This document shows positions 1 to 37,700 of a stretch of 57,987 bases of DNA, one piece after another; the first letter of the stretch is position 1, and the number at the start of each line of letters is the position of its first letter. The DNA lies in the IMG/VR virus record IMGVR_UViG_3300032265_000041, positions 1 to 57,987 of that record; one strand, written 5' to 3'. The notes under the pieces were generated by a model. The model saw only the letters and a list, made by a program, of their open reading frames with translations. It ran no database searches and was not told the origin of the DNA. The position numbers and the translations under genes were made by a program. This stretch comes from a virus (lineage: Duplodnaviria > Caudoviricetes).

Positions 1-11
1 AGAACAAAGAG

Positions 12-2159
12 ATGGATATGGCGGAAGGTGACAGTAGTGCAAAATATAAAGTAAAAAGTATCGGGCATGATACCCGAGGTGATTACTATATTAGCCCAAG
101 CACTAGAAAGAAAGTTTATAAAAGTGGTGTCAAAGTCAGTGATCACGAAAACCCTAAAACGGGTGAGCACAAAGGTGTGGCGGAAGGTGAAGTAGTTCCA
201 TTAGGTAAAAAACATCGTGGTGATTTAGCAGGCATACATTCATGTCCCAAGTGCGGGGGCGAATTACAAGGTGGTAATTATATGGGTCAACGTGTGAAAG
301 TATGTCAACCATGTAAGCAAGTTTATCTACCACCAAATTCAGGTATTGATCAACAGGGTAATAAAACTAACGAGCAAGGTGTGGCGGAAGGCAAGGACGA
401 CAAAATTGCTCAACTAAAGAAAGACCATGACACCGCAGTTCATTGGAGTAAGAATGAGACAAGCCCGCAGAAGCGTGAGGCTGCTCGTCAGAAGGCTGAG
501 AAGATTAAAGCACACCTAGAGAAACAATATAAGCAAGGTGTGGCGGAGGACGATGCTGGTGATGTTGAACAGCGGTTTGCTGCTAAAATGGAAAAAGAAA
601 AACAGCGTTTAGCAAAAATAAAACAGACTGATCCAGAAGCATACAAGCGTGAAATAGCCAAGCGTAAAACTTCATCCAACATTCCCCCTGTGTCTACATT
701 TGAGCAACAAGGTGTGGCGGAAGAAGCCAAGCATGGCCTATATTATAATGTAAACAAGCGCAAGAAGGCCGGCACCAGTAGACCTGCAAGCAGTCCCAAA
801 GCACCCACAGCACAGGCGTGGAAAGATGCTGCTAAAACTGCTAAAAAAGAAAGTGTAGCAGAAAGACAACTTGACGAATTTGTACCAGCATTGGCAGCGG
901 GTGCAGGTGCATTAGCACGTGGTGCAGCAATGGCTGGAGGTGCTGCACTAAAAGGAGCTCAAGCATTAGGTGGCGTAGCATTAAAGGGTGCTCAAGCAGT
1001 TACACCGAGCCTAGTAAAAGGCGTACAATCAGCAGGCAATGCTGTTACAAAAGGTGTGCAAGCAGTTACACCTGGTGTTGCAAAAACTGGACAAGCAATT
1101 CAAAAAGTTCCAGGTCAAGTTGAAAAAGGATTGATAAAAGGATTTGACATGCTGAATGCTCTTGTTCCTGGGGGAATCTTTAATCCTGATGGAAGCATGA
1201 AAGGGTCGCAATATCTAACAAAATATCTAACGCCACAACAAATTCAACAAGCACAGCAACAACCGGCACAAAAGCAACAGCAAGGTGTGGCGGAAGGCAC
1301 AGAAAAACGCTGTATGCAGTGCGGCATGAAAAGTTGTAAATGCCCAGGTACTTCATGTAAGTGCAAGCCTATTGCAGGCTGGGTGCCTGGCAAGGGATTC
1401 AAGAAGGCTATGGACGAAGCTGCCAATGCTGCACAGCAGGCCGCTATTGCTATTTCTAAAAAGAAAGCAATGTCAGAAAACCCAGACTGGTACAATGACG
1501 AAGCAAACAGCATGTCCAGTAGCCAATTAAAAAGCCTATATAAACATGCGATGAAATTACGCCAAGCAGTTAAACAAATGCAGGCACAAGGTGATACATT
1601 AGAACCATGGCAGCAAAGTAAAGTTACCAAAGCCGCTGATTACCTAGATGCTGTGTTCAATGCAGTGGATGACGAGCATGACATGGGCGAGCAGACTGAA
1701 TTAGAAAGTGTGGGCGTTCCATCATACGGTGTAGGCGGCTATCGTAATCGTGGTGATGACGAGAGACACGATCTAGATGATCCAGAACTACAACAAAATC
1801 GTCAAGAAGTCACATCCTACAATATTACTATCGACGGCAAACCAATCAATCCCAAACCAATCTTTGGACGCAGTGCTACTATTGCCTGGGGCAAGAAACA
1901 TGCTGCCACTGGCGTAGATCTTTCCAATGCTATGATATCTCCAGTTAAGCATACTGAAGATGCCTATATGGAGTCACTACAAAATATGTTAGAGCGTTCT
2001 GTTAGTCAGGCACAACATAATCTAATGGTAGGTGTTGCACACAATCCAGCATTTGCCCAAAAGGTAAAAGTTAAACGAGCTGTTGGACAAGAATTTGCTA
2101 ATGCAGATCAAGGTCACGACATTAGCAAACTACCAATACGTGTTCCAAAAAAGAAATGA
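12..2159 (+). CDS. Modular, probably head-packaged polyprotein with repeated [Q/K]GVAE junctions; likely 5'-truncated by the window
   Basis: 715-aa ORF with no in-frame stop upstream inside the window. Unrelated short modules (Zn ribbon, basic helical, amphipathic 11-mer, Cys-rich) are separated by GVAE or hydrophobic-x-E motifs resembling T4 prohead-protease cleavage sites. Confidence 0.7.
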   Translation: MDMAEGDSSAKYKVKSIGHDTRGDYYISPSTRKKVYKSGVKVSDHENPKTGEHKGVAEGEVVPLGKKHRGDLAGIHSCPKCGGELQGGNYMGQRVKVCQPCKQVYLPPNSGIDQQGNKTNEQGVAEGKDDKIAQLKKDHDTAVHWSKNETSPQKREAARQKAEKIKAHLEKQYKQGVAEDDAGDVEQRFAAKMEKEKQRLAKIKQTDPEAYKREIAKRKTSSNIPPVSTFEQQGVAEEAKHGLYYNVNKRKKAGTSRPASSPKAPTAQAWKDAAKTAKKESVAERQLDEFVPALAAGAGALARGAAMAGGAALKGAQALGGVALKGAQAVTPSLVKGVQSAGNAVTKGVQAVTPGVAKTGQAIQKVPGQVEKGLIKGFDMLNALVPGGIFNPDGSMKGSQYLTKYLTPQQIQQAQQQPAQKQQQGVAEGTEKRCMQCGMKSCKCPGTSCKCKPIAGWVPGKGFKKAMDEAANAAQQAAIAISKKKAMSENPDWYNDEANSMSSSQLKSLYKHAMKLRQAVKQMQAQGDTLEPWQQSKVTKAADYLDAVFNAVDDEHDMGEQTELESVGVPSYGVGGYRNRGDDERHDLDDPELQQNRQEVTSYNITIDGKPINPKPIFGRSATIAWGKKHAATGVDLSNAMISPVKHTEDAYMESLQNMLERSVSQAQHNLMVGVAHNPAFAQKVKVKRAVGQEFANADQGHDISKLPIRVPKKK
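172..1294 (+). repeat. Dispersed in-frame direct repeat AAGGTGTGGCGGA (5 exact copies)
   Basis: Core GGTGTGGCGGA at 174, 378, 537, 711 and 1284, all in the reading frame of ORF 12..2159. Four copies extend to CAAGGTGTGGCGGA. A degenerate copy, ATGGCGGAAGG, lies at 18-28. Confidence 0.95.
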
Positions 2160-2947
2160 AAATCAACGATTTATTAGAGTCAGACGACTACGAAATACAT
2201 AACCAAGAAAAACTAGATCGAATACTGGTCAAGTTATGTGAGATGGTCATCGAAGCACAACAAGAAGATAGTGAATACTATGGTATGGTTGCTGCCGGTG
2301 TCCTCGATCCTGATAATAATTTAGCTGCTGGAGTAAACTACCCACATGAAGAAGGCGGTCGTGTCCATGCAGAAAGAGCCGCAATGGAATTATATGAAAG
2401 CCAATATGGATCACCTGTTCCCAAAGGCAGTATCATTATTACAACATTAAGTCCATGTAATGAACACGCAGATAGGACAGCAGACGGACGCCACGGCGAA
2501 AGTTGCACTGAACTAGTAAACAATTCTACAGTTCATAAAGTCTATTGCGGATATCAAGATCCAAGCCAAGGTGACGACGAACACGATGAAAGAACATTCA
2601 CTTTAGAAGAAACTCGCAATCCTGTCATCCGTGCTCTTTGCAAAAAGTTTGCAGATACATTCCTAGATGGTCATGTTTCTGAATCAGCAGCTTGGCATCG
2701 TAAAGCTGGTAAAAGTAAAACAGGTGGGTTGAATGCCAAGGGCATTGCCAGCTATCGTAGAGAACATCCGGGTAGCCACTTACAGAAAGCTGTAACAACT
2801 AAACCCAGTAAACTAAAGCCTGGAAGTAAAGCAGCTAAACGCCGTAAATCATTCTGTGCTAGAATGGGCGGCAGTAAAGGTCCAATGAAAAAGCCAAACG
2901 GTGAGCCTACCCGTAAAGCCCTAGCATTGCGTAAGTGGAACTGCTAA
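2156..2947 (+). CDS. Zn-dependent (CDA/RibD-like) deaminase domain fused to a basic C-terminal phage domain (DUF6321-like)
   Basis: HAE motif (RVHAERAA), TLSPC-x15-C and VYCGYQDP as in RibD-type deaminases. The C-terminal GGLNAKG..RRKSFCARMGG..LRKWNC domain is recalled from phage proteins. Confidence 0.7.
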   Translation: MKINDLLESDDYEIHNQEKLDRILVKLCEMVIEAQQEDSEYYGMVAAGVLDPDNNLAAGVNYPHEEGGRVHAERAAMELYESQYGSPVPKGSIIITTLSPCNEHADRTADGRHGESCTELVNNSTVHKVYCGYQDPSQGDDEHDERTFTLEETRNPVIRALCKKFADTFLDGHVSESAAWHRKAGKSKTGGLNAKGIASYRREHPGSHLQKAVTTKPSKLKPGSKAAKRRKSFCARMGGSKGPMKKPNGEPTRKALALRKWNC

Positions 2948-3141
2948 TGCGTATTTCTGAACTTGTAGAAAACTTTGCAGATGGGCGTCATCCTGAAGAT
3001 AAAGGTGACAGTAAACGTCACGGCATCAATACCAAGGCCGGCGTAAGTAGTCTGCGTAAGACTGCCAAACAAGGCGGACGCAAAGGACAACTGGCACACT
3101 GGCTGGCCAACATGAAAGCTGGCCGAGCAAAAAAGAAATAA
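2947..3141 (+). CDS. Small basic protein with an MRISELVE leader
   Basis: TAATG stop/start overlap at 2945-2949; Lys/Arg-rich, 64 aa. Confidence 0.7.
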   Translation: MRISELVENFADGRHPEDKGDSKRHGINTKAGVSSLRKTAKQGGRKGQLAHWLANMKAGRAKKK

Positions 3142-3267: not shown

Positions 3268-3810
3268 ATGTATAACTTTATAAAACAACTGCAAGAAGGC
3301 AGAGTAATTAAAAAATTAGAGCAGGTAGCCTTGCCCTATGCTCGTGACGGTCTTGGTCGTAGTTTGAGTAAAAAAGCAATAGACTATCATTATGGTAAAT
3401 TATACGGCGGATATGTGACTCGATTCAATGCTGGAGAAGGTGACCCAGATTTTAATGAAGCCGGTGCATTCTTGCATAGCATTTATTTTCCACAAATGCA
3501 ACCACCGAAAGGATCAAACCAACCTAGTGGTAAATCTCTAGAATTTATCAATCAGCATTTTAAAAGTTTTGATAAGTTTAAAGAAAAGTTTGAAAAAACT
3601 GCCATGGGCATACAAGGCAGTGGTTGGGCCTATCTTGCCAAGAATGGTGAAATCAAAACCATTGTCAATCACCAAATTAAAAACGATATTATACTATTAA
3701 TAGATTGGTGGGAACACTCTTGGGTGATGGATTATCAAGCCGATAAAAAAGGTTATTTGAATAATCAGTGGAAAATTATCAATTGGAATATCATAGACGC
3801 CCGTTTATAA
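3268..3810 (+). CDS. sod: Fe/Mn superoxide dismutase
   Basis: LPY, first ligand His in DYHYGK, second His in AFLHSIYF, QGSGW, and DWWEH with the Asp and His ligands. Confidence 0.9.
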   Translation: MYNFIKQLQEGRVIKKLEQVALPYARDGLGRSLSKKAIDYHYGKLYGGYVTRFNAGEGDPDFNEAGAFLHSIYFPQMQPPKGSNQPSGKSLEFINQHFKSFDKFKEKFEKTAMGIQGSGWAYLAKNGEIKTIVNHQIKNDIILLIDWWEHSWVMDYQADKKGYLNNQWKIINWNIIDARL

Positions 3811-3818
3811 AATAAACA

Positions 3819-3847
3819 TTGACACTGCTCCTTGTATAGCGTATACT
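3819..3847 (+). promoter_or_regulatory. Sigma70-type promoter
   Basis: TTGACA-17 bp-TATACT, followed by an AAGGAG RBS before ATG 3868. Confidence 0.8.
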
Positions 3848-3867
3848 AGCTAACAAGGAGATTTTTT

Positions 3868-4140
3868 ATGAGTAAAGCGTTCGGAGCCCCAGAGCAGGCC
3901 AAAATTAAACAAATCGTTGCAGAGGGAATGACGGTAATGCAGGAAATTCAAGACCTAACTGAAGGTCTCAACGAAACCATCAAAGCTGTGGCGGAGGAAT
4001 TGGAAATCAAGCCCAGTGTTATTAAGAAGGCAATTAAAATTGCACAGAAAGATACATGGGATCAAGTGTTCCGAGAATTCGACGACTTGGAAACTATTGT
4101 AGACATTAGTGGTCACAGCTTCCGTCGTGAAGATCAATGA
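3868..4140 (+). CDS. Small dsDNA-binding protein (T4 DsbA/GapR-like)
   Basis: 90-aa helical protein with an IK..AEELEIKPSVIKKAIK pattern; good RBS. Confidence 0.55.
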   Translation: MSKAFGAPEQAKIKQIVAEGMTVMQEIQDLTEGLNETIKAVAEELEIKPSVIKKAIKIAQKDTWDQVFREFDDLETIVDISGHSFRREDQ

Positions 4141-13961: not shown

Positions 13962-14816
13962 ATGAAAATTAAAGTATCTGAATTATTCTATTCTATCCAA
14001 GGCGAAGGACGCTTTATGGGAGTCCCGTCTGTGTTCTTGAGAACATATGGTTGCAATTTTACCTGTCAAGGATTTGGTATGCCTCGCGGAACATTAAGCA
14101 CAGAGGCAGATGATATTGCTAAACGGGCTGTTGAATTTACAGAATATAAATCACTGCCGCTTGTTAGCACAGGTTGCGACAGTTATGCAAGTTGGCATCC
14201 AGCATTTAAAGATTTAAGTCCAACAATCGAAGTTGAAGGACTTGCTAACAACATTGTAGCTACATTACCATTTAAAGAATGGCGTGAAGAACATTTGGTT
14301 ATTACAGGTGGTGAGCCATTGCTAGGTTGGCAACGTGCATATCCAGAATTGTTGGATCAGCCCTGTATGAAGAACTTAAAAGAAATTACTTTTGAGACTA
14401 ACGGCACAATGCGTTTGACAAAAGACTTTCGGCAATATCTACTTAACTGGACATTAGGCAACAAGTCGAGAGGCAAGGATGCACTTACATTCTCAATCAG
14501 TGCTAAACTGCCTTCAAGTGGCGAGTCGTGGGAAGATGCAATCAAGCCAGAAGTGGTATTGTCATATGAAGATGTTGGACATGCATACCTTAAATTTGTT
14601 GTAGCAACAGAACAGGATATTGAAGATGCATTAAAGGCAACACAACAATATCGTGATGCTGGATTTAAAGGCAATGTATATCTAATGCCGGTCGGTGGTG
14701 TAGAAAGTGTATACAGCGTTAATAATAAAACTGTTGCATTGGCTGCAATGAAACACGGTCTCCGTTATAGTGATCGGTTGCAGGTGCCGTTGTTTAAGAA
14801 TGAGTGGGGAACTTAA
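13962..14816 (+). CDS. queE: 7-carboxy-7-deazaguanine synthase (radical SAM)
   Basis: ELFYSIQGEG, VFLRTYGC, ITGGEP, FETNG and C-terminal RLQV. Confidence 0.88.
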   Translation: MKIKVSELFYSIQGEGRFMGVPSVFLRTYGCNFTCQGFGMPRGTLSTEADDIAKRAVEFTEYKSLPLVSTGCDSYASWHPAFKDLSPTIEVEGLANNIVATLPFKEWREEHLVITGGEPLLGWQRAYPELLDQPCMKNLKEITFETNGTMRLTKDFRQYLLNWTLGNKSRGKDALTFSISAKLPSSGESWEDAIKPEVVLSYEDVGHAYLKFVVATEQDIEDALKATQQYRDAGFKGNVYLMPVGGVESVYSVNNKTVALAAMKHGLRYSDRLQVPLFKNEWGT

Positions 14817-18899: not shown

Positions 18900-20150
18900 A
18901 TGACAAGCGTAATGAAAACTGAAAAAGTTAAAAAACCCGTAGCTACCAAAGAGTATACACAGGCAGAAAAGAATAAGATTGTTGAGAAGTTGGTCACAGC
19001 CCGTATTGGTCTGCTGTTGCGCCACCCTTTCTTTGGCAATTTGGCAACACGTATGAAGCTGATTGATGCGTCAGACTGGTGTGCTACATTGGCCACAGAT
19101 GGTCGTAACTTCTATTACAATAACGACTTTGTTAATAAACTTAAACCCAAAGAAGCAGAGTTTGGATTTGCACACGAAGTTCTCCATAATGTATTTGACC
19201 ACATGGGCCGTCGTGATCATCGTGACCCTACTCTATCAAACATTGCCGCAGATTATGCCGCTAACCAAATTCTTAAAGATGAACGTATTGGTGAAGTACC
19301 TACATTCATTAAAATCTATCAAGATAACAAGTATCGTGGCATGAGCTATGAACAGATCTATGATGACATTTACGAAAAGGCCGACAAGATTGACATCGGT
19401 TCGCTAGGCGAACTATTGGACGAGCACTTAGACGGTGATGACGAGAGTGACGGGGAAGGCGATGGAGAAAACAAGGGCAAAGGTCGCCCAAAGTTGACTG
19501 CTGAAGAAAAGAAAGCTATCCGCGACGAGATTAAGGAAGCTATGGTAGCGGCTGCACAGGCGGCAGGTGCTGGCAAAGTTCCTGCAGGTATCCAACGCAT
19601 GATCAGTTCTTTCACTGAACCTAAAATGGACTGGCGTCAAATGTTGCGTATGAATATTCAAAGTATTCTGAAAAGCAACTTTAGTTTTAGCCGCCCTAAT
19701 CGTAAGTCACAGCACTGTGGTGCTATCTTGCCAGGCATGATGAACGAAGAAACAATTGATGTTAGTGTAGCAATTGACATGTCTGGTTCTATTAGTGACT
19801 CTATGGCAATGGATTTCCTAAGTGAAGTTAAAGGCATCATGGATGAATATCAAGACTTCAAATTGGACTTGTGGACATTTGATACTCGAGTGTATGGCTA
19901 CCAACGTTTTACAGGTGATACGGCTGATGAGATCTTATCTTACAAGTGCCAAGGTGGTGGTGGTACTGACTTCGATGTAAACTATGACTTTATGAAGAAT
20001 GAAGGTATTGAGCCAAAACGATTTATTATGTTTACTGACGGTTATCCTTGTGGTAGCTGGGGTGATGAGAACTACTGCGAATCTTTGTTTATTATTCACG
20101 GTAACGACTCAATCGTTTCTCCATTCGGCCAGACTGCGCATTATAAATAA
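18900..20150 (+). CDS. Metallopeptidase-like + VWA domain protein (DUF2201-like), MoxR partner
   Basis: HEVLH (HExxH), MIDAS DMSGS, GGGTDF and FTDG. Confidence 0.85.
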   Translation: MTSVMKTEKVKKPVATKEYTQAEKNKIVEKLVTARIGLLLRHPFFGNLATRMKLIDASDWCATLATDGRNFYYNNDFVNKLKPKEAEFGFAHEVLHNVFDHMGRRDHRDPTLSNIAADYAANQILKDERIGEVPTFIKIYQDNKYRGMSYEQIYDDIYEKADKIDIGSLGELLDEHLDGDDESDGEGDGENKGKGRPKLTAEEKKAIRDEIKEAMVAAAQAAGAGKVPAGIQRMISSFTEPKMDWRQMLRMNIQSILKSNFSFSRPNRKSQHCGAILPGMMNEETIDVSVAIDMSGSISDSMAMDFLSEVKGIMDEYQDFKLDLWTFDTRVYGYQRFTGDTADEILSYKCQGGGGTDFDVNYDFMKNEGIEPKRFIMFTDGYPCGSWGDENYCESLFIIHGNDSIVSPFGQTAHYK

Positions 20151-28772: not shown

Positions 28773-31700
28773 TTAATTTGACGTTAATGGGTTATTATTT
28801 TCGTCTAACAAAGGTGATCCATTTTCAGTAGTTAATGTGTTAACACTACGAGCGATGCGATCTCCTCCGTAGTAGTATTTATCGGGTAATTCTGCAGGTC
28901 TTTCTTGCAAGAATTTAGCCGGAAGTGTAGTACTATCCATGAGTGACACAGTTTTATTCGGATCAGTTAGCGGAAGGGCAATACCATTCCACTCTGTTGA
29001 TCTATCAAAACCCTTCTTAACAAGTGTTAATTTAATTCTGTCGTCAACTCCATTAGCAATATTTAACACTAACCTCTGATCAGCTGGTAGATAAAAAGAC
29101 AGCGGCCACGCTATCGTTATTTCTGCTGCAAATCCAATGCCCCATCCATTAAACATAGTGTTGTGACCAACACTAGTTACGGTATACTCATTACCATTAT
29201 TAGTTTGCATTATCCATCCGGGTTGTATTTGAGTTGTATAGGAATTTTCCACTATTACAAATCCCGATCCTATTAGCGGTTGATTACCGGTTACATCATT
29301 CCTAATAACAATTGGACCTTTTTTTAGAATAACAGTAATATCAAATTCTGGAGGTAGATAATTTAATCCTCTGTATACGTAACCATTTACTGCATCAGGT
29401 TCAACAGATCCGGTATATACCCAAACTTGATTTGTTGTAGTCACAATATATGATGTACCAATTATATTAGTATTTGGAATATCCTGTACAGTTGCAGTCG
29501 ATTCAATAGTTATATTTTTAGTATCGGGACTATCATAAGATAAAGTGGTATCATGAACAAATATTCCGTCTTTTCTTAATAATCGACCACCGTAAAATAC
29601 TTGTACTTGATCAACAGTACGAATTGGTAAACTAGTAAGCGGTGCAGTTTGTAATGCTATTCCATCACTAACAATAACATCAGTAGTGTTAGGTATTGTT
29701 ATTGTCTGTGTATTGAGATTAATAATGTATGTAGATGTATTAGCAGTTGTATAATGAACTTGTGTACTAATTGTTTCAGCAAATGGAATAGTTTGATCAG
29801 GACTCTGATCAATTACTTTAGTTCCGGCAATGTAATAAAGTCCGGGAGATGTACCCAATGTACCTCTTCGTAGCTGTCTTAAAACATTCTTATCTGCCTT
29901 CATAAATTCAATACGCTCGCCGTCAATAATAACAACGCCGGGAATATTTTTACTTATTAGAGGCGGAGTAAGTGCTGCAGAATCATCAACATATATTTCA
30001 GTATCAGTAAACGATAATGCACGAGTTAACTGTGTGGTATTTTCTTTAGACAATCGTTTAAAATGTGTTCGGTTAAACATATCGTTAAAGATTCGATAAC
30101 CTAAAACAGCAGTAGCTAATCGTTGATCAACCATGCTTCTAATAACAATAGAATCAGTAGATACTATAGGATTTGCATCGCTAATTTGTATTGTCATTTG
30201 ATCATCTAATATACCAAAATCTAATCCACTAGTTAATGGGGTTCCATTTAATTGTACCCAAACATAATTTATATTAGTTACCGGACGAGATATTTTAAAT
30301 CGTCTATTTGGATTTCCATCAAACCGTTCTGTCCTTATTACCATATCATCAGCATCATTATATGTAAGAACTTTAATTTCACCAGTAGATGTACTTAGGC
30401 TTAGATTTAATGTTGTTCCGACAATATCATATTCATAATCTTTATCAGCACCAGTTGGTAAATCTACAATTGCAATTACATCTCCAATCGATAGTCTTAC
30501 AGAAGATGTATCAATTGTTACAACTTTTCCAGAAACTGTAAAATCAAATCCAGCAGTTATTTTAATTCCGTTTCTATAAACACGAATTGTTTGGTCCGGA
30601 GGATAATGATTAAATGTTCCTTGATTATTAATTAAGAATACATTGTTAGTAGGTGATGTTACTTGATAGTAATCAATATGCGGAGGTATTAATTGTTTGC
30701 GTACCTGTGTGATAGGATCATAGTGCTCAACTATAGTTTCGGCAACAACTGGTTCTATGTTACCCGGACTGTGAGTAAGAGAGGTTGAAGTAGTAGATGT
30801 GTTAATAACAATAACCTGCTCACTAATCTCATTAAAGTAATCATGAAATGTTCCAAAGAACCAGGCTTGTGCAGTATTTACAAAACCATCAGGCAAATTA
30901 AATACCTTAACAGCAGCACGATGACTTGTTTCATCAACTGGTTCAAACTTATAATATATAGTACTCGAAGTTGTTATTGCAAGTCCATTAACTGTCACGT
31001 ATACACTCTTAACAGAATCAAAATCTGCTAAACTAACTACAGTGGCAGTTACATCTACCGTAGTTGTTATTGCATTGTCAATTACACCAATTTCGGTATA
31101 AGTATCGGAACGGCCGCCGCCGATACTAATAATAGTATATCCTAAATAACCACTAACAGATTGAGGACCTACTACAATTTCATTAGTTTCCCAATCAATA
31201 TAAAAGAACGGACTATCTAAAACAGTAGGAATATCTGTACTTATACTAAACATTCTACCATCAAATGAAACTGTAATATTATTATTGCTAGGTGGAACTA
31301 TTCCTAATTTTCTACGGGTAGTAACATTCGGTAAAATATCTACAGAGTGAGTAAACACCACAGGGGCACCGTGGAATGTTTTTGTATAAACATTTATTCC
31401 AATGCTATCAGATGCTTGTCCGGGTACAAATTCTTCCGGGGCATGACTGGTATTGGCTGTATAGAATCCATCACCGTCAATAATGATATCTTCGGGATTA
31501 ATACCTAATGCAAGATTGCGAGTTAATCCAGTCCAGCTCCCACCGGATATATTACTATCAAGAAGATTTGAATTTTCATCATATGTCCAGAACTCTATCT
31601 GATAAGTAGTATCGCTCGGATTTAATGCTTTGGACAGAGTAGAGTTAAATGCTACAGCCCTAGTAGACGTATGAACTTCTGTAACTATTACAGTTGAGGT

Positions 31701-34700
31701 GTTAAATCCATTGGTAGTAGTGCTAATAATATTAGCATGTTGACCCACCGTAATACCAGTAGTGGTATTTAATATAACAATATTATCACCCATAACAGCC
31801 GTAGCTGCTACTTTGGCTTTTGTATAATACCCAATATTATCAGCATATGCAAAAGTATCAAATGGATTTAAATCAGAGCCTTGCATCCATGCTAAAGTAC
31901 TGCCAAATGGCAACCCTTCGATTTGTGTTTTAGGATAATCAATACCGGTCATTAATTGACCCAAATCCATCCCCGGCATACTAGATGTTGCAGTATAGTA
32001 ATTTAAAATACGTTCAGTTGCATTAAACAATTCAACGCTCTTATGATAACTTACTTCTAACAATTGAGAATCAGTCGGAATATAATTTAAAAATATTAAC
32101 TTGCTGAATTTCTTTTCATAACCATTATACTCAGAAGTATAATACTGAATACTATAATCCGAACTCATTGCAACCCGACCGTCTACATACACATCAATCT
32201 TAAACTTGTCTTTCTCTGCTACCCAATTTAATACAAACTCATTAGTATAACCGTTACAAATAAATCTATCAACTACAATAGTGTCGCCAATTTGATTAGT
32301 ATCACTAATACGATCAAATTTCATACCAATTAAATTAGTACGAACTTTTCCATTAATTAGATTTGCATATGCAGTACCGTTAGTGCCCAATGTGCCGCCG
32401 ACTAATGTAATTATTGGAGATTTTGTATATCCGCTTCCGGGATTAGCAATTTTAATAGATGTTACTTCTCCAGATCCAATATATGCAACTGCGGTTGCAG
32501 TGGTTCCAACATCACCATCGGCATGAGTGATTTGCACCGCAGGAGCACTTGTATATTCAGATCCAGGGTTGCTAATTGAAATACTACCGATTGTATATTT
32601 GTAATTGTCTGCCCAAGCCTTCCAAGGATACGATGTTAGTTGACTGCTTTGTTCAAACATACCTGTAGATTTATTATATACAGACGGTAGATCAAAGTCA
32701 GATGTAAATGTTTGTGTCGGTTCAATCACTGTATGATTAGCAGTAAAACTACGAACAGTTGTATGATAAGGTTTAACCTCAGCTAGATATTGTTCATAAT
32801 AATCACTACTAGAGATCTTATATACAGGACGTTGATCCAATGTACCTGCATAATTAACAACAGTAATGAAAGATGTCTTAAATGCCCAATCTAATAATTT
32901 CTGTTCAGACAATGCATACTTAACGGCTTTGAAGAAGAACAGATTCCAATTGATCTTAAGATCGTTAACAAATATATTATCACGCAATGCCGCTAATATA
33001 TACTGAAGTTCGATATCGGGTGTTTGGTCAAATAGTGTTTGGTCAAACGTACTGCGTTGGTCAAATCCGTATGTACTTGCAGAAAGGTTCCAAATGGTAT
33101 CTAATATTTGTATTGTACCATTTTCACTATAAACAATATTGTAGTCGTTGCTAAAAGAACCATCAATAGCTGTCTTTTCTAGGATGATATAATTGCCCAA
33201 ACCACCATTCTTAACTTTAACATACTGTCCGTTAGTTAACGTTAATTCATTAACTTGGTAAACATCGTCAACAGTAGCAACATAGTCTAAAAAGGGATTG
33301 TAATCAGTGCTAGACCAATCTACATATTTCCAATATAAAGGAGTGTTGTACTGCTGAGTTCCTGTACGTGTCCATTGATCAGTGCTTAAATCATAAACAA
33401 ATTTAGACCACTTGCCATTAAACTGGGTATCAGCTATTACGATAACAGTATATTGACGTACTAACAAAGTAGGTGCTACAGTAAATCCAGAACCTGCATT
33501 AACAATAGTGGCAGAAATAACTCTACCCATACTGTCAATCTCTGTAGTAATTAATGCATCAGATTCAACATCATTAACAATTTTAACTGTTGGAGAAATC
33601 TTATATCCAAATCCGGAACTAATGATTTGTACACTGCGGATTCTTCCATTATCAATAGTACATGTTAATTTAGGTAATTCAAATAACCTAGTATTAATAA
33701 CCAATAATCCTTCATTGTCTTCTACTGTTTGATCGTATTCATGAGTATATGGACTAGGAATAGTATCTTGTTTGTTTAAATTTATAAAATCATAATTTCC
33801 AGAAATTCTATTCTTAATCAAAATATTGTTAGTAAATTCGACTAAATTTCTTAATGCTTCTAATCTATCTTTAAACAATGTTTGCTGAGGTCTGATACCA
33901 ATACCATAACGTGTTCTAGATGTTAATTTAGGATCAGGAACAGAATTTCCTAATTTATCATGACCTAATAAACTATCAAGCAATTTCTTTTCAAGTAAAG
34001 CGTTTGGTCTGCTGATTGCAGATCCTTCTTGTAACAATAACCATTCTGTATGTCGAAGTGTACTAGTTGCCGGATTATTTTTATTTGTAGAATCAGATGC
34101 AATGTTTAAATGTATTCTATCACCTACTAACATTGACCCAACATTAGCTAATGCCACTGAATCACTATCTAATATAGCGGCATACTTTAAACCATATACT
34201 GTGGGATCTGCAATCATAGAAGCAACTTGATATGCATTTGTTCTTCTGTTTGTCGAGTCAGGTACTGTAATTTTATTCTTAACCCAATAATAGTAACGAT
34301 TGCTAAATGAATTAGTTACAGAACTATAAACTTGTTTGACAGAAATAACACTGTTATCAGCAAATTTAGGTTGGCCACTAATGCCTTCTGTTAGACCGGC
34401 AGCAGTATCGGCAATAGAACTCCATTCGCTAGGAAGATATGACGAACCGACCCATTCATAAACATCAATAGTTGCTCCGGGGAATAGTTTGCCCCAATTA
34501 TTCTTTCTATATGATAAATCACTTTGCTCGTACCATTGATACTTAACAGTGCTTAAATCCCACCATAGTTCACCGACATGTTCATGCAACCAGTTAGTAT
34601 CTGTGTCATTTACTGTTCCTGCTATACCTATAGAATATACAGCAGGATCAAACGCTGATTTATATTTCAATTCTTGATCAGCAAGTCCTGCAATTTTTCC

Positions 34701-37700
34701 TTTTAAAGGATCAATGATATCTAAATAATCAACTACTTCTTCTGTGAAAGAATTAATCAATGTTACTTTCTGTATAGCATTGGTCATTATTAGACTATCT
34801 TGCTCTCTTAATACATTATAACCAAATACAGATTTATCAATCTTATTAAATTGATAGACCGCATTTGTAGTAGCGTTAGATGATTTAGCAGGTGCTCCAA
34901 CATATATAACATCATCATCTACTGCAATACTAGTACCGTAATAAGAACCTTCTACAATTACTTCGGTTTCTAAATCATCTGCTAATACATATCTAGTATG
35001 TCGTTTATGATAAACATACACAGTACCTATATTTTTAATTACCCCATAGAACGTTGTTGATTTAGCATCAAATGTAGATTCAGAAGTTGATTTTGTTTTA
35101 TCAAACGTAGTATGTAAAGATTTATTATCACCGATCGCAGAAATAATTAGTGTATTGTTATCGGTACTTATGTCAACATCGTGCCCAAATTTCATTCCAT
35201 CACCAGATATAGGATTAGATAAAATTGCATCTAATACAAATAATCCAGATGTTGCTGTATATATTGCAACTGCGCCAATTGATAAATCTTCATTTACATA
35301 AGTAGGAGCAGATATTGCCAAATACGACCCATCTCCGGATACAGTTACTTTTTCACCAAATCTACCTGTACGAGTTGTTAAGGTAAAGAATGGGGAAATT
35401 ATAGTCTGTAAAAATGTTACGTTAGTTCCTGTGAATATACTTACAAGTCCAATACCGTCTGAATAACCAGGAGCACCGATTGCTATTACGCCTGCATTAT
35501 CAGACCCACCGATACTATATCCCCATTGGCTACTAGTTGAAACTGTAGAAGTTGTAATTTTTTTAACATAATTGACACGAACTGTAGATGTCGTTGCATT
35601 TACGTTAAACGAATATACTGTCCCAGTCCCTGTTGTTAATGTACCAGGTGCTCCAACTAATAATAATTTTGTACTTGTATTTCGTTGTACATAAATTGAA
35701 GAGCCAAATCGTTGAAAGTTAGTTGCATCTGGGGCTCGTACCACCGCCTTAGTAGATGCTTCTAATATAGAGATATCGACACTACTAATTTTTACTATCC
35801 CTTGCTGAATTAAAGATGACGGAGTAGTTGTGCCTGGATTATATACGTGACTAACCCCGGGGGCTCCTACAAATATCAATCCATAATTAGTATTAGTAAA
35901 TGTTATATCATCATAAACAACACAACTACCAAACTCAGTAGCAGGTGTCGTGATATCATAATAAGGAGTTACATCATCATTTAAGAAATACGAGAATAAT
36001 CCTTGAGATTCTTTATCTATTTTTTTATATACAGCAACTTTACCAAAGATGCTACCATCGTTATATGCAGGTGATCCTATAACAAAAATGTCATTACCTT
36101 TTCGTTTGCTGATACTATAACCAAATTGTTCATGGTTAGTAGAGACAGAGGTAGCAATTGAACTATAGTTATTAACCTTTTCATATACCGCCCACGTCTC
36201 GGGCAAATACTTATTGCCAGCTTTTGATCTGTCAACAGTATCATTAATCCAAAATTTTGTATTATCAGGTAAGTTCAATAATTCGGTATCAGAAGGAAAA
36301 CTATCGTAATTAGACACTCGAGCAGATGTAAATTTAAACAATGCGCCCGGTTCAGGCAACTCAGCATTTGTTATAGATGCCAGTGTCGATGCTACTGTAA
36401 ATCTTGTTTTTAAAGGAACACCCGTAACTCGATAGACTCCATTAATTTGAGTGTTAAACTGAGATACAGACACAATATCACCTACTGATAAGTTATGGTT
36501 GATATTAGTTATAAATGTAATCTCAGCAGTCGGTGAACTAACAAATACTCCCGTAACCCCAACATCGGATCTGACGTATCTAACAACATCCCAACCACCA
36601 TTTGGTTTAAATCCTATCCATATAGTGTCGCCTTCGTTTATATTATTGTTATTAGCAATGTCTAACAAACTGTTTTCGTTATATGCTGTTGCAGTTACAT
36701 CATCTAATCTTACATAACCCGCAGTGACTAGCTTAAATTCAAAATCAATATCTGTCTCGACGGAGAATGTTGATGCAGGAGTATAATCTTCTGGAACAAT
36801 GATTCTATCGCTACTAGTGCTATAGTAAATTAAATCATTAGCAATTATAGGTTTAGAATCTACAAATTTAATAATTTGTGGATTTTCAATAAACCTGCCC
36901 TCTGCTAAAGGTACTTCTAATTCTTGATAAGTTTCATACGATCCATAATGACCGATACGAAATGCCCATTCTTCTGAATAGTCTAGTCTACCTTGCAAGT
37001 TATGGAGACTAGCTTTAGCTAGTTTAGTAATAGCATTACGGGTGCCTTTTTCTTTAATAAATCCTTGATAGAATTTATATTGAGCAATAGGATTTGTAAA
37101 AATATTATTTAGATATACTCGCGGTGTATAACCAGTTAAATGCTGTGCCATCTTTTGTTGGGCACTGTCAAAGTTATCAATATCCGAACTATAAAAATCT
37201 TCAAATTGATTGATCTTATAATCAAAGTTTGGTAATAACCCTGCAACTGGTTTTTCTCCCAACTTAGTCCACAATATAAAATCAAATTTAACAGAACCCA
37301 CTACATTCTTAATGGCCGAATAGTATTGGCTATTAAAGCGAACAATATCTCCATATTTGTAATCAGTGTATTGTGCCCAATCTGTTATCTGGGCGCTGTC
37401 GTATACAAAGCCAGGACTAAAATAATCACCGTTCCAATTTGCTGTACGGAATCCTGTTAACTTCATCCTGCGCTGACGATATCCGGTTTCAATGTCATAG
37501 ATAACATCTTTAAACACTGTTGCATTGTTAAAAACCATTGCGTGTTCTTTCTGAACAGAATGGATAGTAGCAAAATAAATGCCATCTGTGGAGTTTACTG
37601 TTTCAATTGTACAGATACCGTTATCTCTATTAACAGAAATATTATTTTGAGGGAATGAAATGCCATCAGCCTTTAATAAACTATATTCATAAAAACTATC

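What the first reader, a model, noticed from the sequence alone, without database searches (positions are those of the whole stretch)
12..2159. In-frame cassette array: a DNA repeat that doubles as a putative protease site separates unrelated peptide modules
Seen: five exact copies of AAGGTGTGGCGGA (core at 174, 378, 537, 711, 1284; spacings 204, 159, 174 and 573 bp) plus a degenerate copy at 18-28. All are in frame and read [Q/K]GVAE, and the intervening sequences are unrelated to each other. Every copy uses GTG-GCG, although this AT-rich genome visibly favours GTT/GTA and GCT/GCA; the VAE at about 855 in the same ORF uses GTA-GCA. The conservation is therefore at DNA level as well as protein level. 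Established: T4-type prohead protease cleaves after Glu in hydrophobic-x-E motifs of head proteins. Inference: this is a protein-coding repeat/spacer array in which short effector modules are gained, lost or shuffled by recombination at the repeat, packaged as one polyprotein and released by cleavage. It resembles an integron or CRISPR array in layout but sits inside a single ORF. This is the best candidate in the window for an undescribed system.
Basis: partly seen in the sequence, partly recalled or inferred. Interest (0 to 1): 0.87.

Follow-up and report, generated by a model that had tools for sequence, protein, structure and literature searches.

The report
In-frame cassette array in phage polyprotein
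A gene of a giant T4-like freshwater phage strings together small interchangeable protein modules with a short linker that is identical even at the DNA level and resembles a cut site for the phage's head-maturation protease.

Summary
Window ORF 3-2159 (its 5' end is cut by the contig edge) has five exact, in-frame copies of AAGGTGTGGCGGA, reading [K/Q]GVAE, between six unrelated basic segments.

- **Family size:** 943 cluster representatives share modules, in different orders.
- **Linker frequency:** GVAE occurs 298 times in the best 150 representatives, against 2.4 expected.
- **DNA-level conservation:** 53 of 79 distinct junction contexts use exactly GGT-GTG-GCG-GAA, against about 0.5% expected from codon usage. 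Neighbouring modules are only 72-86% identical at DNA level.
- **Breakpoints:** homology between loci starts and stops at the linkers.
- **Protein-level constraint:** P1 Glu and an aliphatic P3 are kept while P2 and P4 vary. This is the T4 gp21 type of site (L/I-x-E).
- **Phage type:** the contig is about 16% of a T4-like jumbo genome, and 5 of 5 larger relatives encode the S77 prohead protease.
- **Leaders:** free-standing copies of modules, many polyproteins and the two genes downstream in the window begin with M-[R/K]-x-x-E-F-I-x-E-type leaders, which resemble the T4 capsid targeting sequence MKTYQEFIAE. These leaders use ordinary codons.

Best reading: a chain of internal-protein-like head cargo that is cut at the linkers, with the frozen linker DNA serving as the crossover point for cassette exchange. 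Cleavage, packaging and the recombination role are inferred, not shown.

The parts
3..2159 (+). Mosaic polyprotein ORF, open at the contig's 5' end (718 codons read; first ATG at 12).
   Evidence: There is no Pfam hit. 943 cluster representatives share one or more modules.
18..29 (+). Degenerate junction ATG GCG GAA GGT, reading M-A-E|G, at the start of segment 1.
   Evidence: L045 has …SVAE|GSGGTKYKIKSIG… at the equivalent place, and its DNA homology to the window starts at 19.
171..188 (+). Linker 1: AAA GGT GTG GCG GAA GGT (K-G-V-A-E|G).
   Evidence: Homology to L045 ends at 190 and homology to L001 starts at 180.
375..392 (+). Linker 2: CAA GGT GTG GCG GAA GGC (Q-G-V-A-E|G).
   Evidence: Homology to L001 ends at 392. 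Contigs of other runs diverge at 391-394.
534..551 (+). Linker 3: CAA GGT GTG GCG GAG GAC (Q-G-V-A-E|D).
   Evidence: The 94%-identical tract shared with L002 starts at 529.
708..725 (+). Linker 4: CAA GGT GTG GCG GAA GAA (Q-G-V-A-E|E).
   Evidence: The L002 tract ends at 723, and dozens of loci start homology at 705-741, mostly 706-720.
1281..1298 (+). Linker 5: CAA GGT GTG GCG GAA GGC (Q-G-V-A-E|G).
   Evidence: Homology to many loci starts at 1277-1311. Loose contig ends lie at 1298.
27..185 (+). Segment 1 (GDSSAKYKVKSIGHD…; pI 8.9 computed for residues 1-58, which include the 5-residue MDMAE lead).
   Evidence: Homologous cassettes occur in L045, L056 and P0151 in other contexts.
186..389 (+). 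Segment 2: CxxC…CxxC zinc-ribbon-like cassette (pI 8.5).
   Evidence: In family 2, 12 GVAE-bounded copies have 10 different upstream and 11 different downstream neighbour families. The heptapeptide QVYLPPN from this cassette occurs 51 times in the 150 representatives.
390..548 (+). Segment 3: helical cassette (pI 9.5).
   Evidence: In family 1, 16 copies have 14 different upstream and 15 different downstream neighbours. This is the only part of the single-sequence model with pLDDT near 90.
549..722 (+). Segment 4 (DDAGDVEQRF…; pI 8.2).
   Evidence: In family 3, 8 copies have 8 upstream and 8 downstream neighbours. It is 94% identical to a cassette of L002 that has unrelated flanks.
723..1295 (+). 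Segment 5, composite (pI 10.1): a KHGLYYNVNKRK… cassette ending at SVAE, then an Ala/Gly-rich repetitive part.
   Evidence: P0151 carries the Ala/Gly-rich part after …EGVTE|EQLDEF….
852..863 (+). Non-canonical junction S-V-A-E with ordinary codons (AGT GTA GCA GAA).
   Evidence: Homology to about 50 loci ends at 844-869. VAE sites not preceded by Gly mostly use ordinary codons.
1296..2156 (+). Segment 6, composite (pI 8.6): a Cys-rich cassette, an NPDWYNDE… helical cassette (from 1476, after M-S-E at 1467-1475) and C-terminal cassettes.
   Evidence: Separate homology tracts lie at 1282-1470, 1476-1690, 1746-1947 and 1985-2157. phrog_16759 matches residues 663-701.
2156..2947 (+). Next gene: dCMP/cytidine-deaminase domain plus DUF6321, starting with the leader MKINDLLE|S. 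Its start overlaps the polyprotein stop (ATGA).
   Evidence: Pfam. The leader scan finds 2 of 143 window ORFs, against 0 of 445 internal Met controls. DUF6321 is also a terminal cassette of polyproteins L018, L032 and L045.
2947..3141 (+). Free-standing copy of a cassette, with an 8-residue leader MRISELVE|NFADG… Its start overlaps the upstream stop (TAATG).
   Evidence: It is 60% identical (E = 4e-20) to an embedded cassette of L046. The same cassette follows QGVAE| in P0167 and P0168.

Best explanation
Window 3-3141 is part of an internal-protein-type cargo locus of a T4-like jumbo phage.

**What is shown.** ORF 3-2159 is a polyprotein made of small, basic, unrelated cassettes. An 18-nt unit, CAA-GGT-GTG-GCG-GAA-GGC, joins them and encodes Q-G-V-A-E|G.

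**Inferred, step 1.** The chain is taken into the prohead by a T4-CTS-like N-terminal leader, or by an N-terminal module that resembles the capsid protein's N-arm. That end is missing from the window but is present in relatives.

**Inferred, step 2.** The S77 (gp21-type) prohead protease cuts after the Glu of each aliphatic-x-Glu junction. This releases the cassettes as separate small proteins that travel with the DNA, as T4 IPI-III do.

**Inferred, step 3.** Because every cassette is flanked in the same frame by the same DNA, general recombination or template switching between linkers swaps, adds or removes whole cassettes without breaking the frame. This can happen within a genome or between co-infecting relatives. 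Cassettes that keep the consensus linker stay exchangeable, and that keeps the linker's synonymous sites frozen.
For: **Architecture**
- There are five exact in-frame copies in the window.
- Of the 150 best representatives, 124 carry GVAE, 298 sites against 2.4 expected, with a median segment of 69 aa.
- The 176 GVAE-bounded segments fall into 117 families with almost as many different neighbours as copies.

**Frozen DNA**
- The exact 12-mer is used at 69 of 98 sites, and at 53 of 79 distinct contexts.
- The expected frequency is about 0.0045 (my arithmetic from the codon frequencies).
- GCG is used at 84 of 98 sites against 6.4% background, GTG at 81 of 98 against 20%, and GGT at 95 of 98 against 45%.
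- CAA precedes the motif in 67 of 68 cases, and GGC follows in 42 of 58.
- Linker codon identity is 0.80 over 4,156 pairs with unrelated flanks and 0.845 next to diverged homologous modules, whose own value is 0.635.
- Orthologous module codons are 0.65-0.72 conserved.
- In a DNA-seeded sample, 102 of 103 matches are in frame, and 48 of 75 other GVAE sites carry the exact 12-mer.

**Breakpoints**
- Homology tracts begin and end at the linkers.
- All 3 recent events found between loci at 95% identity or more have a breakpoint at a linker.
- Contigs of four runs diverge at the linkers.

**Protease-site signature**
- Of 24 one-nucleotide variants, 15 are synonymous, against an expected share of 10/36 (p = 4e-4).
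- All 9 non-synonymous variants keep P1 Glu and P3 Val or Met.
- In 150 proteins, P1 is Glu in 262 of 265 linker-context sites, P3 is only V, I, M, L or A, and P2 and P4 vary.
- T4 gp21 cuts after L/I-X-E (passages of PMC9026906).

**T4-like setting**
- Baseplate genes, gp55-like and gp46/47-like genes are present.
- S77 protease and gp23 homologues are found in 5 of 5 larger relatives.

**Targeting**
- The leader M-[RK]-x-x-[ED]-[FL]-[IVLF]-x-E starts 124 of 4,973 ORFs, against 16 of 16,700 internal Met positions.
- By my count of the rows printed, 13 of 33 free-standing module copies begin with it.
- It abuts the same module start residues as QGVAE does.
- It resembles the T4 CTS MKTYQEFIAE (passage of PMC8442874).
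- In the window only the two genes after the polyprotein carry it.
- The other common N-terminal module aligns with the capsid protein across its L-x-E site (hhalign probability 92.8%, E = 4e-7).
- All six window segments are basic, as the T4 IPs are.

**Control**
- The leader is conserved only as protein and uses background codons.
- Non-canonical [VILMF]-A-E sites do too: GCG is used at 1 of 37 such sites.
- So the frozen DNA is specific to the internal canonical linkers.

**Complex model**
- Protease plus a linker-bearing L001 segment scores 0.69, best of 3 controls 0.00.
- The mark was reached by 58 of 80 solved complexes and 2 of 110 mismatched pairs; these counts hold only roughly because my own alignment was used.
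- The runs agree in at least 82% of contacts, and the partner's pLDDT is at least 62.
Against: **No direct evidence.** Nothing here shows cleavage or packaging. No deposited phage genome carries the family: 1 record of 50,697 matched, over 38 residues only.

**Window N-terminus missing.** No leader can be shown for the window's own ORF.

**Capsid protein site differs.** The capsid proteins use Leu rather than Val at P3. Their true maturation site is uncertain, E33 or E41, because residue 41 aligns with residue 12 of mature T4 gp23*.

**Complex interface is off the linkers.** The confident contacts are partner residues 40-44 and 59-71, inside a cassette, not the linkers at 19-22 and 87-90. The pass therefore says nothing about cutting at GVAE.

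**Gene setting.** The gene lies among replication and metabolic genes. None of 7 full-length genes has TATAAATA upstream, although that motif is nearly absent from these loci.

**Short homology.** About 18 nt is short for homologous recombination. From recall, T4 recombination falls sharply below roughly 50 bp.

**Exchange without frozen DNA.** Exchange also occurs at junctions with ordinary codons, at 852-863 and 1467-1475.

**Few recent events.** Only 3 were found.

**Lineage limits.** The two most complete relatives have 0 exact 11-mers, although they do have polyproteins.

**Leaders are not universal.** In 15 of 33 free-standing copies no [VILMF]-x-E precedes the module start.

**Data source.** All loci are metagenome assemblies, so some cassette orders could be chimeric.
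Confidence: 0.6

Rival explanations
1. The chain is an uncleaved multidomain protein of the polyvalent type. QGVAEG is a fixed hinge that is never cut, and the protein acts as one long string, packaged or not. Linker identity serves only cassette exchange.
For: The N4 virion RNA polymerase and several plasmid polyvalent proteins are delivered unprocessed (passages of PMC5512222). No cleavage data exist here. The complex model does not place the linkers on the protease.
Against: Selection keeps P1 Glu and an aliphatic P3 while P2 and P4 are free. A passive hinge does not need that pattern. The same cassettes exist as free genes with short leaders ending in aliphatic-x-Glu, so they work as separate units. 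No hallmark polyvalent-protein domains were found in 9 chains scanned.
Confidence: 0.17
2. The frozen codons serve translation or mRNA biology rather than recombination. One version is a rare-codon pause (GTG, GCG) that lets each cassette fold before the next emerges. Another is a purine-rich signal that stalls ribosomes or guides an RNase.
For: GCG (5-6%) and GTG (9-20%) are rare codons in these genomes, and the motif lies exactly at domain boundaries.
Against: The common codons are equally frozen: GGT at 95 of 98 sites against 45% background, and CAA at 67 of 68 against 72%. Non-canonical junctions between cassettes use ordinary codons. Homology breakpoints coincide with the motif. No conserved flanking sequence exists that could build an RNA structure.
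Confidence: 0.12
3. The chain is cut in the cytoplasm by a host protease or another phage protease, or it cuts itself. In this reading it is a way to make many small early proteins in equal amounts, and none of them is packaged.
For: The gene sits among replication and metabolic genes, and no late-promoter motif was found.
Against: The leader resembles the T4 capsid targeting sequence. The alternative N-terminal module resembles the capsid protein's N-arm. The site matches the specificity of the S77 protease found in 5 of 5 relatives. No protease domain was detected in the chains scanned. T4 IP genes also lie outside the head gene cluster (recalled).
Confidence: 0.08
4. The pattern is an artefact: chance repeats, or mosaic orders created by metagenome misassembly at a shared short repeat.
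For: All relatives are assemblies. Logan contigs break at the linkers.
Against: 0 of 100 shuffles reach the observed count. The 17-mer is in frame in 102 of 103 matches across 80 loci. The same architecture appears in 943 cluster representatives from several sources. Linkers are shorter than usual assembly k-mers, and reads span them.
Confidence: 0.03

Closest known systems
[quoted passage not shown]
   Same: The phage is T4-like and relatives carry an S77 protease. The units are small and basic. The short N-terminal leader has the E-F-I-x-E core, like MKTYQEFIAE. The cut motif is aliphatic-x-Glu. The cargo behind a conserved leader is highly diverse, and the T4 review itself suggests the CTS is a way to load varied proteins (passage).
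   Different: T4 IPs are separate genes, each cut once. Here up to 7 GVAE sites join unrelated units in one frame. The internal sites are frozen at the DNA level while the leaders are not. Homology to the T4 IPs themselves was not tested. Packaging and cleavage are not shown.
Polyvalent proteins of phages and conjugative elements (Iyer et al. 2017, PMC5512222; abstract and passages read)
   Same: Both are mosaic chains of many domains in one polypeptide. Both are thought to be delivered with the DNA and possibly processed by proteolysis. Both combine domains in many ways.
   Different: Described polyvalent proteins are built from large enzymatic and DNA-binding domains and often carry their own metallopeptidase. 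Here the units are about 50-70 aa and almost all are unknown to Pfam. The word 'linker' occurs 0 times in that paper's main text, and I found no conserved junction described in the passages read. Its supplementary files could not be seen.
gp38 adhesins of T-even phages: conserved glycine-rich motifs separating hypervariable segments (PMC3157838; abstract and passages read)
   Same: [quoted passage not shown]
   Different: The glycine-rich motifs form the structural core of one folded domain, and their order is fixed. Here the units are independent and unrelated, and their order varies. The motif also looks like a protease site.
PeSL regulatory cassettes of T4-type hyperplastic regions (PMC2839356; abstract read)
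   Same: Short repeated DNA elements flank non-essential genes in T4-type phages and mediate modular shuffling by recombination.
   Different: PeSLs are intergenic promoter plus stem-loop units that move whole genes. This element is 18 nt, lies inside an ORF, is translated, and moves parts of a protein.
Integron gene cassettes (attC sites plus IntI)
   Same: The layout is similar: an array of unrelated cassettes separated by a recurring short site, with cassettes found in many orders.
   Different: No tyrosine recombinase is present in the window or in 5 relatives. The site is unstructured, translated and in frame. Exchange presumably uses general recombination.
Ejection and inner-body proteins of phiKZ and SPN3US-type giant phages (PMC10052503; passages read)
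   Same: Head-internal proteins are cut at several x-x-Glu sites by a gp21-related protease, with motif A-X-E and Val preferred at P4.
   Different: Those cuts remove or fragment propeptides of single proteins. A chain of unrelated exchangeable units with a DNA-frozen site is not described in the passages read.

Membership tests
T4-type CTS-targeted internal head proteins | Encoded by a T4-like phage that has a gp21-type (Peptidase_S77) prohead protease. | tested here: met
   The contig has T4-like baseplate genes plus gp55-like and gp46/47-like genes. PF03420 is above cut-off in 5 of 5 larger relatives. It was not found in the window itself, which is only about 16% of a genome.
T4-type CTS-targeted internal head proteins | A short N-terminal propeptide ending in aliphatic-x-Glu, resembling MKTYQEFIAE. 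| tested here: inconclusive
   This is met for the two downstream genes (MKINDLLE, MRISELVE), for 20 of 225 family proteins and for 13 of 33 free-standing cassettes (my count). The N-terminus of the window ORF itself is missing.
T4-type CTS-targeted internal head proteins | Small, basic mature proteins. | tested here: met
   The six window segments have pI 8.2-10.1. The median GVAE-bounded segment is 69 aa.
T4-type CTS-targeted internal head proteins | Physically present in heads and cut by the prohead protease. | not testable with these tools
   There is no cultured member. The complex model passed its controls, but its interface is not at the linkers.
T4-type CTS-targeted internal head proteins | Sequence homology of the mature parts to T4 IPI, IPII or IPIII. 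| not tested
   No T4 IP sequence was fetched. T4 IPs are themselves unrelated to one another (passage), so this is a weak criterion.
Polyvalent proteins (Iyer et al. 2017) | 2 to 15 domains in one polypeptide, combined variably, in a phage or conjugative element. | tested here: met
Polyvalent proteins (Iyer et al. 2017) | Built from that study's characteristic domains (metallopeptidase, ParB, ArdC-N, primase, methylase, kinase and others). | tested here: not met
   Pfam finds none of these in the window ORF or in 8 large relatives. Among further members only HicA, GP88, GNAT, DUF6321, DUF6886 and a glycine zipper appear.
Integron-like cassette array | A site-specific tyrosine recombinase acting on the recurring site. 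| tested here: not met
   PF00589 gives 0 matches in the window and in 5 relatives, while the control rings in 14 of 14 genomes.
Integron-like cassette array | Cassettes delimited by a recurring DNA site and found in varying order. | tested here: met
PeSL-type shuffling elements | An intergenic promoter plus terminator stem-loop flanking whole genes. | tested here: not met
   The element lies inside one open frame and is translated. Its flanks are not conserved, so no stem-loop is possible.

The most novel reading that the evidence does not exclude
A phage-encoded, in-frame cassette system. One 18-nt element serves both as the crossover site for exchanging protein-coding cassettes through the phage's general recombination machinery, with no dedicated recombinase, and as the site the prohead protease cuts after translation. 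A population of jumbo phages would thereby maintain a combinatorial, rapidly reshuffled library of small proteins injected with the DNA. Known toxin-type domains such as HicA are among the cassettes.
Probability: 0.4. Interest if true: 0.88.

Novelty: new variant of a known kind. Interest (0 to 1): 0.78.

Why it matters
If this reading is right, it extends the T4 internal-protein idea, in which a short targeting and cleavage signal loads arbitrary proteins into the head, into a modular genetic system that mixes dozens of unrelated small proteins in one gene.

It offers a simple explanation of how jumbo phages diversify their injected cargo. It also points to a large pool of uncharacterised candidates for anti-defence or host-takeover proteins: 117 families among only 176 segments examined.

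The case is unusually clear as an example of a sequence constrained at two levels at once. The peptide is constrained at P1 and P3, and the DNA at all synonymous sites. The leaders, which carry the same kind of site, act as an internal control because their codons drift freely.

The leader and linker rules give a direct way to predict head-packaged proteins in uncultured T4-like phages. They could also be reused to load several proteins into T4-type capsids from one construct.

Tried and rejected
**DNA search of deposited phages.** blastn of window 1-2400 found nothing.

**Late promoter.** TATAAATA occurs upstream of 0 of 7 full-length genes. The motif is almost absent from these loci (20 in 744 kb), so the test says nothing.

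**Single-sequence AlphaFold2 model.** Mean pLDDT was 50.6 and pTM 0.26. That is too poor to judge whether linkers are exposed, so I ran no fold search on it.

**ESM Atlas.** No usable hit.

**Genome-wide signal (Chi-like).** Rejected. In five relatives the 11-mer occurs 0-4 times, and only inside the local gene cluster.

**Internal translation starts at the in-frame GTG.** Rejected by inspecting. The GTG is directly preceded by the Gly codon with no spacing for a ribosome-binding site, and cassettes start with G, D, E or A, not Met.

**Recent common descent as the reason for identical codons.** Rejected. Adjoining modules are only 72-86% identical at DNA level, and their codon identity is 0.635 against 0.845 for the linker.

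**Read-level search for deletion variants.** Only Logan contigs were available. The four 'joints' have 20-26 nt on the shorter side and may come from other genomes that share two linkers, so I do not count them as deletion variants.

**Habitat labels of runs.** I drew no conclusions from the labels of low-share runs.

**Literature.**
- 'GVAE' plus 'phage' returned 1 irrelevant paper.
- DUF6321, DUF7230 and DUF3008 returned 0 papers.
- 'polyprotein', 'prohead protease' and 'ejection proteins' returned nothing that describes such chains, judged from the listing only.

Full report
**1. The observation**

ORF 3-2159 on the + strand runs off the 5' end of the contig. It reads 718 codons, and the first ATG is at 12. 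It holds five exact copies of AAGGTGTGGCGGA at 172, 376, 535, 709 and 1282. At up to 2 mismatches the window has 8 matches against a mean of 0.70 in shuffles, and 0 of 100 shuffles reach 8.

All spacings are multiples of three, and every copy reads [K/Q]-G-V-A-E. Positions 18-28 (ATGGCGGAAGG, M-A-E-G) are a degenerate copy. A relative has a junction at the same place. The six segments between the copies belong to six different similarity families.

The codon argument holds for the contig. GTG is 9% of Val codons and GCG is 5% of Ala codons in the 46 other ORFs. Six of the ORF's nine GCG codons lie in the linkers, counting the degenerate copy. The other VAE (SVAE, 852-863) uses GTA-GCA.

**2. 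The setting**

The window is the whole record held: 57,987 bp, estimated at 16% complete. It is a fragment of a T4-like myovirus. It carries:
- gp6-, gp25- and gp5-like baseplate proteins and tail fibres;
- family B DNA polymerase;
- a gp55-like late sigma factor, a gp47-like nuclease and thymidylate synthase.

Larger relatives are 83-356 kb, and one has terminal repeats at 322 kb.

The genes next to the ORF are a dCMP/cytidine-deaminase domain fused to DUF6321 (2156-2947), a 64-aa ORF (2947-3141), a Fe/Mn superoxide dismutase and the polymerase. In the closest relative, L001, the genes upstream are a cytidylyltransferase-like gene, a ferritin/Dps-like gene and an unknown one.

**3. A large mosaic family**

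A scan of IMG/VR returned 80 loci. Different parts of the window protein match them separately. Their ORFs are chains of small modules in different orders, with many …QGVAE| junctions.

HMMER against 1.84 billion cluster representatives found 943 proteins at E ≤ 1e-3. Among the best 150:
- 124 carry GVAE, 298 sites against 2.4 expected from composition;
- the consensus is [E/K]-Q-G-V-A-E-G;
- the median distance between sites is 69 residues.

Cutting at GVAE gives 176 internal segments in 117 families. The commonest families have almost as many different neighbours as copies: 16 copies with 14 upstream and 15 downstream families, 12 with 10 and 11, and 8 with 8 and 8. These proteins were chosen by likeness to the window protein and are 50%-identity representatives, which favours diversity.

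Pfam recognises almost none of the modules. Exceptions among further members are HicA toxin, GP88, GNAT, DUF6321, DUF6886 and a glycine zipper. Every source name is 'hypothetical protein', apart from two automatic domain names.

**4. The linker is frozen at the DNA level**

In the window plus 80 loci, 98 GVAE sites in 51 ORFs use GGTGTGGCGGAA 69 times. Codon use at the motif, against the rest of the same ORFs:

| Codon | At the motif | Background |
|---|---|---|
| GGT | 95 of 98 | 45% |
| GTG | 81 of 98 | 20% |
| GCG | 84 of 98 | 6.4% |

From these frequencies the exact 12-mer is expected at about 0.45% of sites (my arithmetic).

After collapsing to 79 distinct contexts, 53 are exact. Conservation spans about -5 to +13 and drops to background on both sides. 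The Gln before the motif is CAA in 67 of 68 cases (background 72%). The Gly after it is GGC in 42 of 58 (background 33%).

Controls:
- At conserved residues of four orthologous modules the major codon holds 65-72%.
- In 54 pairs of diverged homologous modules, codon identity at identical residues is 0.635 in the module and 0.845 in the adjoining linker. In 4,156 pairs of junctions with unrelated flanks it is 0.80, against about 0.44 expected from codon usage by my arithmetic.
- Other [V/I/L/M/F]-A-E sites in the same ORFs use ordinary codons. GCG is used at 1 of 37 non-Gly I/L/M/F sites and 5 of 19 non-Gly Val sites.

In the 80 loci analysed, 102 of 103 matches read QGVAEG in an open frame of 100 or more codons. 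Of 75 other GVAE sites in those ORFs, 48 have the exact 12-mer.

In five relatives the 11-mer occurs 0-4 times, always within the local cluster. So it is not a genome-wide signal.

**5. Breakpoints**

DNA homology between the window and other loci begins and ends at the linkers:
- 19-190 (L045);
- 180-392 (L001);
- 529-723 (L002, 94% identical, with unrelated flanks);
- starts at 705-741, mostly 706-720, for about 50 loci;
- starts at 1277-1311 for about 20 loci.

Homology also breaks at two non-canonical junctions, SVAE at 852-863 and M-S-E|N at 1467-1475.

Neighbouring cassettes have different closest relatives and different divergence, from 81% to 94%.

Among pairs of loci at 95% identity or more, only three events were found, and all three involve linkers:
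- a cassette replacement with both breakpoints in linkers (L194/L206);
- a 177-nt insertion at a linker (L007/L127);
- a replacement with its left breakpoint in a linker (L096/L128).

Logan contigs of the probable source run and three other runs end or diverge at 170-192, 391-394, 705-723 and 1298. These are contigs only.

**6. Protein-level selection, separate from the DNA**

In-frame exchange alone would conserve the peptide, so I looked at variants. Of 24 distinct one-nucleotide variants of the 12-mer, 15 are synonymous, against an expected share of 10/36 (binomial p = 4e-4). The 9 non-synonymous ones are GMAE ×3, GVSE ×2, GVTE, DVAE, SVAE and GVEE. All keep Glu at P1 and Val or Met at P3.

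In the independent set of 150 proteins, residues in linker context are:

| Position | Residues seen |
|---|---|
| P1 | E 262, Q 2, K 1 |
| P3 | V 262, I 8, M 8, L 3, A 3 |
| P2 | A 262, then E, T, S, D, V, K, G, Q |
| P4 | G 262, then S, D, P and others |

This is the pattern reported for T4 gp21 (L/I-X-E, cut after Glu; passages of PMC9026906). It resembles the giant-phage proteases too (A-X-E; passages of PMC10052503).

Peptidase_S77 and gp23 homologues are present in 5 of 5 larger relatives. Their capsid proteins have an invariant L39-x-E41|S. The exact maturation site is uncertain, though, because residue 41 aligns with residue 12 of mature T4 gp23* and a second x-L-E33|N lies nearby.

**7. 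Targeting signals**

The 64-aa ORF at 2947-3141 is a free-standing copy of a cassette that is embedded in L046 (60% identity, E = 4e-20) and that follows QGVAE| in P0167 and P0168. It starts M-R-I-S-E-L-V-E|N-F-A-D-G, written in ordinary codons.

I found 33 distinct small frames whose match reaches the first residues of a cassette. In 18 of them the residues just before the module start are [VILMF]-x-E. By my count of the printed rows, 13 begin with an M-R-x-x-E-[F/L]… leader, and 15 show no such site.

The leader M-[KR]-x(1-3)-[ED]-[FL]-[IVLF]-x(1-2)-E starts 124 of 4,973 distinct ORFs in the loci, against 16 of 16,700 internal Met positions. It also starts 20 of 225 family proteins, and there its last Glu abuts the same start residues that follow QGVAE elsewhere.

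In the window a slightly relaxed pattern matches 2 of 143 ORFs (0 of 445 internal Met controls): the deaminase-DUF6321 gene (MKINDLLE|S) and the small ORF.

The T4 capsid targeting sequence is given as MKTYQEFIAE. The T4 internal proteins are described as highly basic and cut once next to it (passage of PMC8442874). In T4, residues 4 and 7 matter for targeting and residues 8 and 10 for processing (passage).

The leaders here share E-F-I-x-E, and all six window segments are basic, pI 8.2-10.1.

A second common N-terminus (MNNEFK…) aligns with the capsid protein across its L-x-E|S site and N-arm (BLASTP E = 1e-4; hhalign probability 92.8%, E = 4e-7).

The leader's codons follow background usage. 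So a protease or targeting function alone does not freeze codons. Only the internal linkers are frozen.

**8. Interpretation**

Shown:
- a family of chains of exchangeable cassettes;
- a junction conserved as DNA and, separately, as an aliphatic-x-Glu peptide;
- breakpoints at the junction;
- T4-like phages with S77 protease;
- T4-CTS-like leaders on the same cassettes.

Inferred:
- the chains enter the prohead and are cut at each junction into internal-protein-like cargo;
- the identical in-frame DNA is where crossovers or template switches exchange cassettes, and this in turn keeps it identical.

No tyrosine recombinase is present in the window or in 5 relatives. gp46/47-type recombination nuclease genes are present. 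General recombination is therefore the likely machinery.

**9. Results that cut against this reading**

- There is no direct evidence of cleavage or packaging.
- No deposited phage carries the family.
- The N-terminus of the window ORF is missing.
- The capsid site uses Leu at P3.
- The complex model passed its controls: score 0.69, best of 3 controls 0.00. The mark was reached by 58 of 80 solved complexes and 2 of 110 mismatched pairs, roughly, because my own alignment was used. The runs agree in at least 82% of contacts, and the partner's pLDDT is at least 62. But the protease sits on the inside of a cassette (partner residues 40-44 and 59-71), not on either linker.
- 18 nt is short for homologous recombination (recalled).
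- Exchange also occurs at junctions without the frozen DNA.
- The two most complete relatives have no exact 11-mer.
- Only three recent events were found.
- All data are assemblies.

**10. Novelty**

The parts are known kinds:
- CTS-loaded internal proteins of T4;
- mosaic polyvalent proteins (PMC5512222, whose main text has 0 occurrences of 'linker');
- recombination at conserved motifs in gp38;
- recombination at PeSLs.

I found no description of an in-frame chain of unrelated cassettes joined by a DNA-frozen protease-type site in the searches. I therefore rate it a new variant of a known kind. The bolder reading, a recombinase-free in-frame cassette system, remains open.

Noticed in passing
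window 2156-2947 (+): The dCMP/cytidine-deaminase domain fused to DUF6321 starts with a CTS-like leader (MKINDLLE|S). This raises the possibility that a deaminase is loaded into the head. DUF6321 also ends several polyproteins and many unrelated PHROG families.
   Followed up: partly
window 28773-42104 (-): There is a giant ORF of 4,442-4,443 aa between the tail-fibre and baseplate genes. It matches phrog_10938 'virion structural protein' (E = 0, residues 563-1570) and has a weak head-closure-like stretch.
   Followed up: partly
window 3983-3995 (+), in ORF 3868-4140: AAGCTGTGGCGGA is a one-mismatch copy of the 13-mer and reads A-V-A-E-E. It lies inside a 90-aa protein of phrog_12534 / 'transcriptional regulator' type. 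It may be chance or a relic.
   Followed up: no
L001/L003/L009/L048/L062 N-termini; L018 C-terminus: A motif …[aliphatic]-x-E|S-x-x-G-G-T-S-x-G-S-[IV]-A-[ST]-V… resembles the capsid protein's cleavage region and N-arm. It occurs at the N-terminus of many chains and, in L018, at the C-terminus after L-K-E|D.
   Followed up: partly
P0215, P0218 (family members): A HicA-type toxin domain sits as a cassette inside chains. These chains also use a second recurring junction, …EEVEQ[IL]DE…, twice each. This suggests other linker types in other lineages.
   Followed up: no
window 864-1295 (+): The Ala/Gly-rich part of segment 5 has short internal repeats (KGAQA…, KGVQAVTP…; a 21-nt tandem at 888-927). 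A homologue in P0151 lies next to a glycine-zipper match.
   Followed up: no
L001 7807-8274 versus window 3810-3868: The closest relative has an HNH endonuclease gene between the superoxide dismutase and the regulator-like gene, and the window lacks it. A second HNH-type gene lies at window 18900-20150.
   Followed up: no
window 3268-3810 (+); L001 3203-3646: A Fe/Mn superoxide dismutase lies next to the locus, and in the relative there is also a ferritin/Dps-like gene. These are oxidative-stress genes in a phage.
   Followed up: no
window 13962-14816 (+): A QueE-like radical SAM gene hints at 7-deazaguanine-type DNA modification.
   Followed up: no
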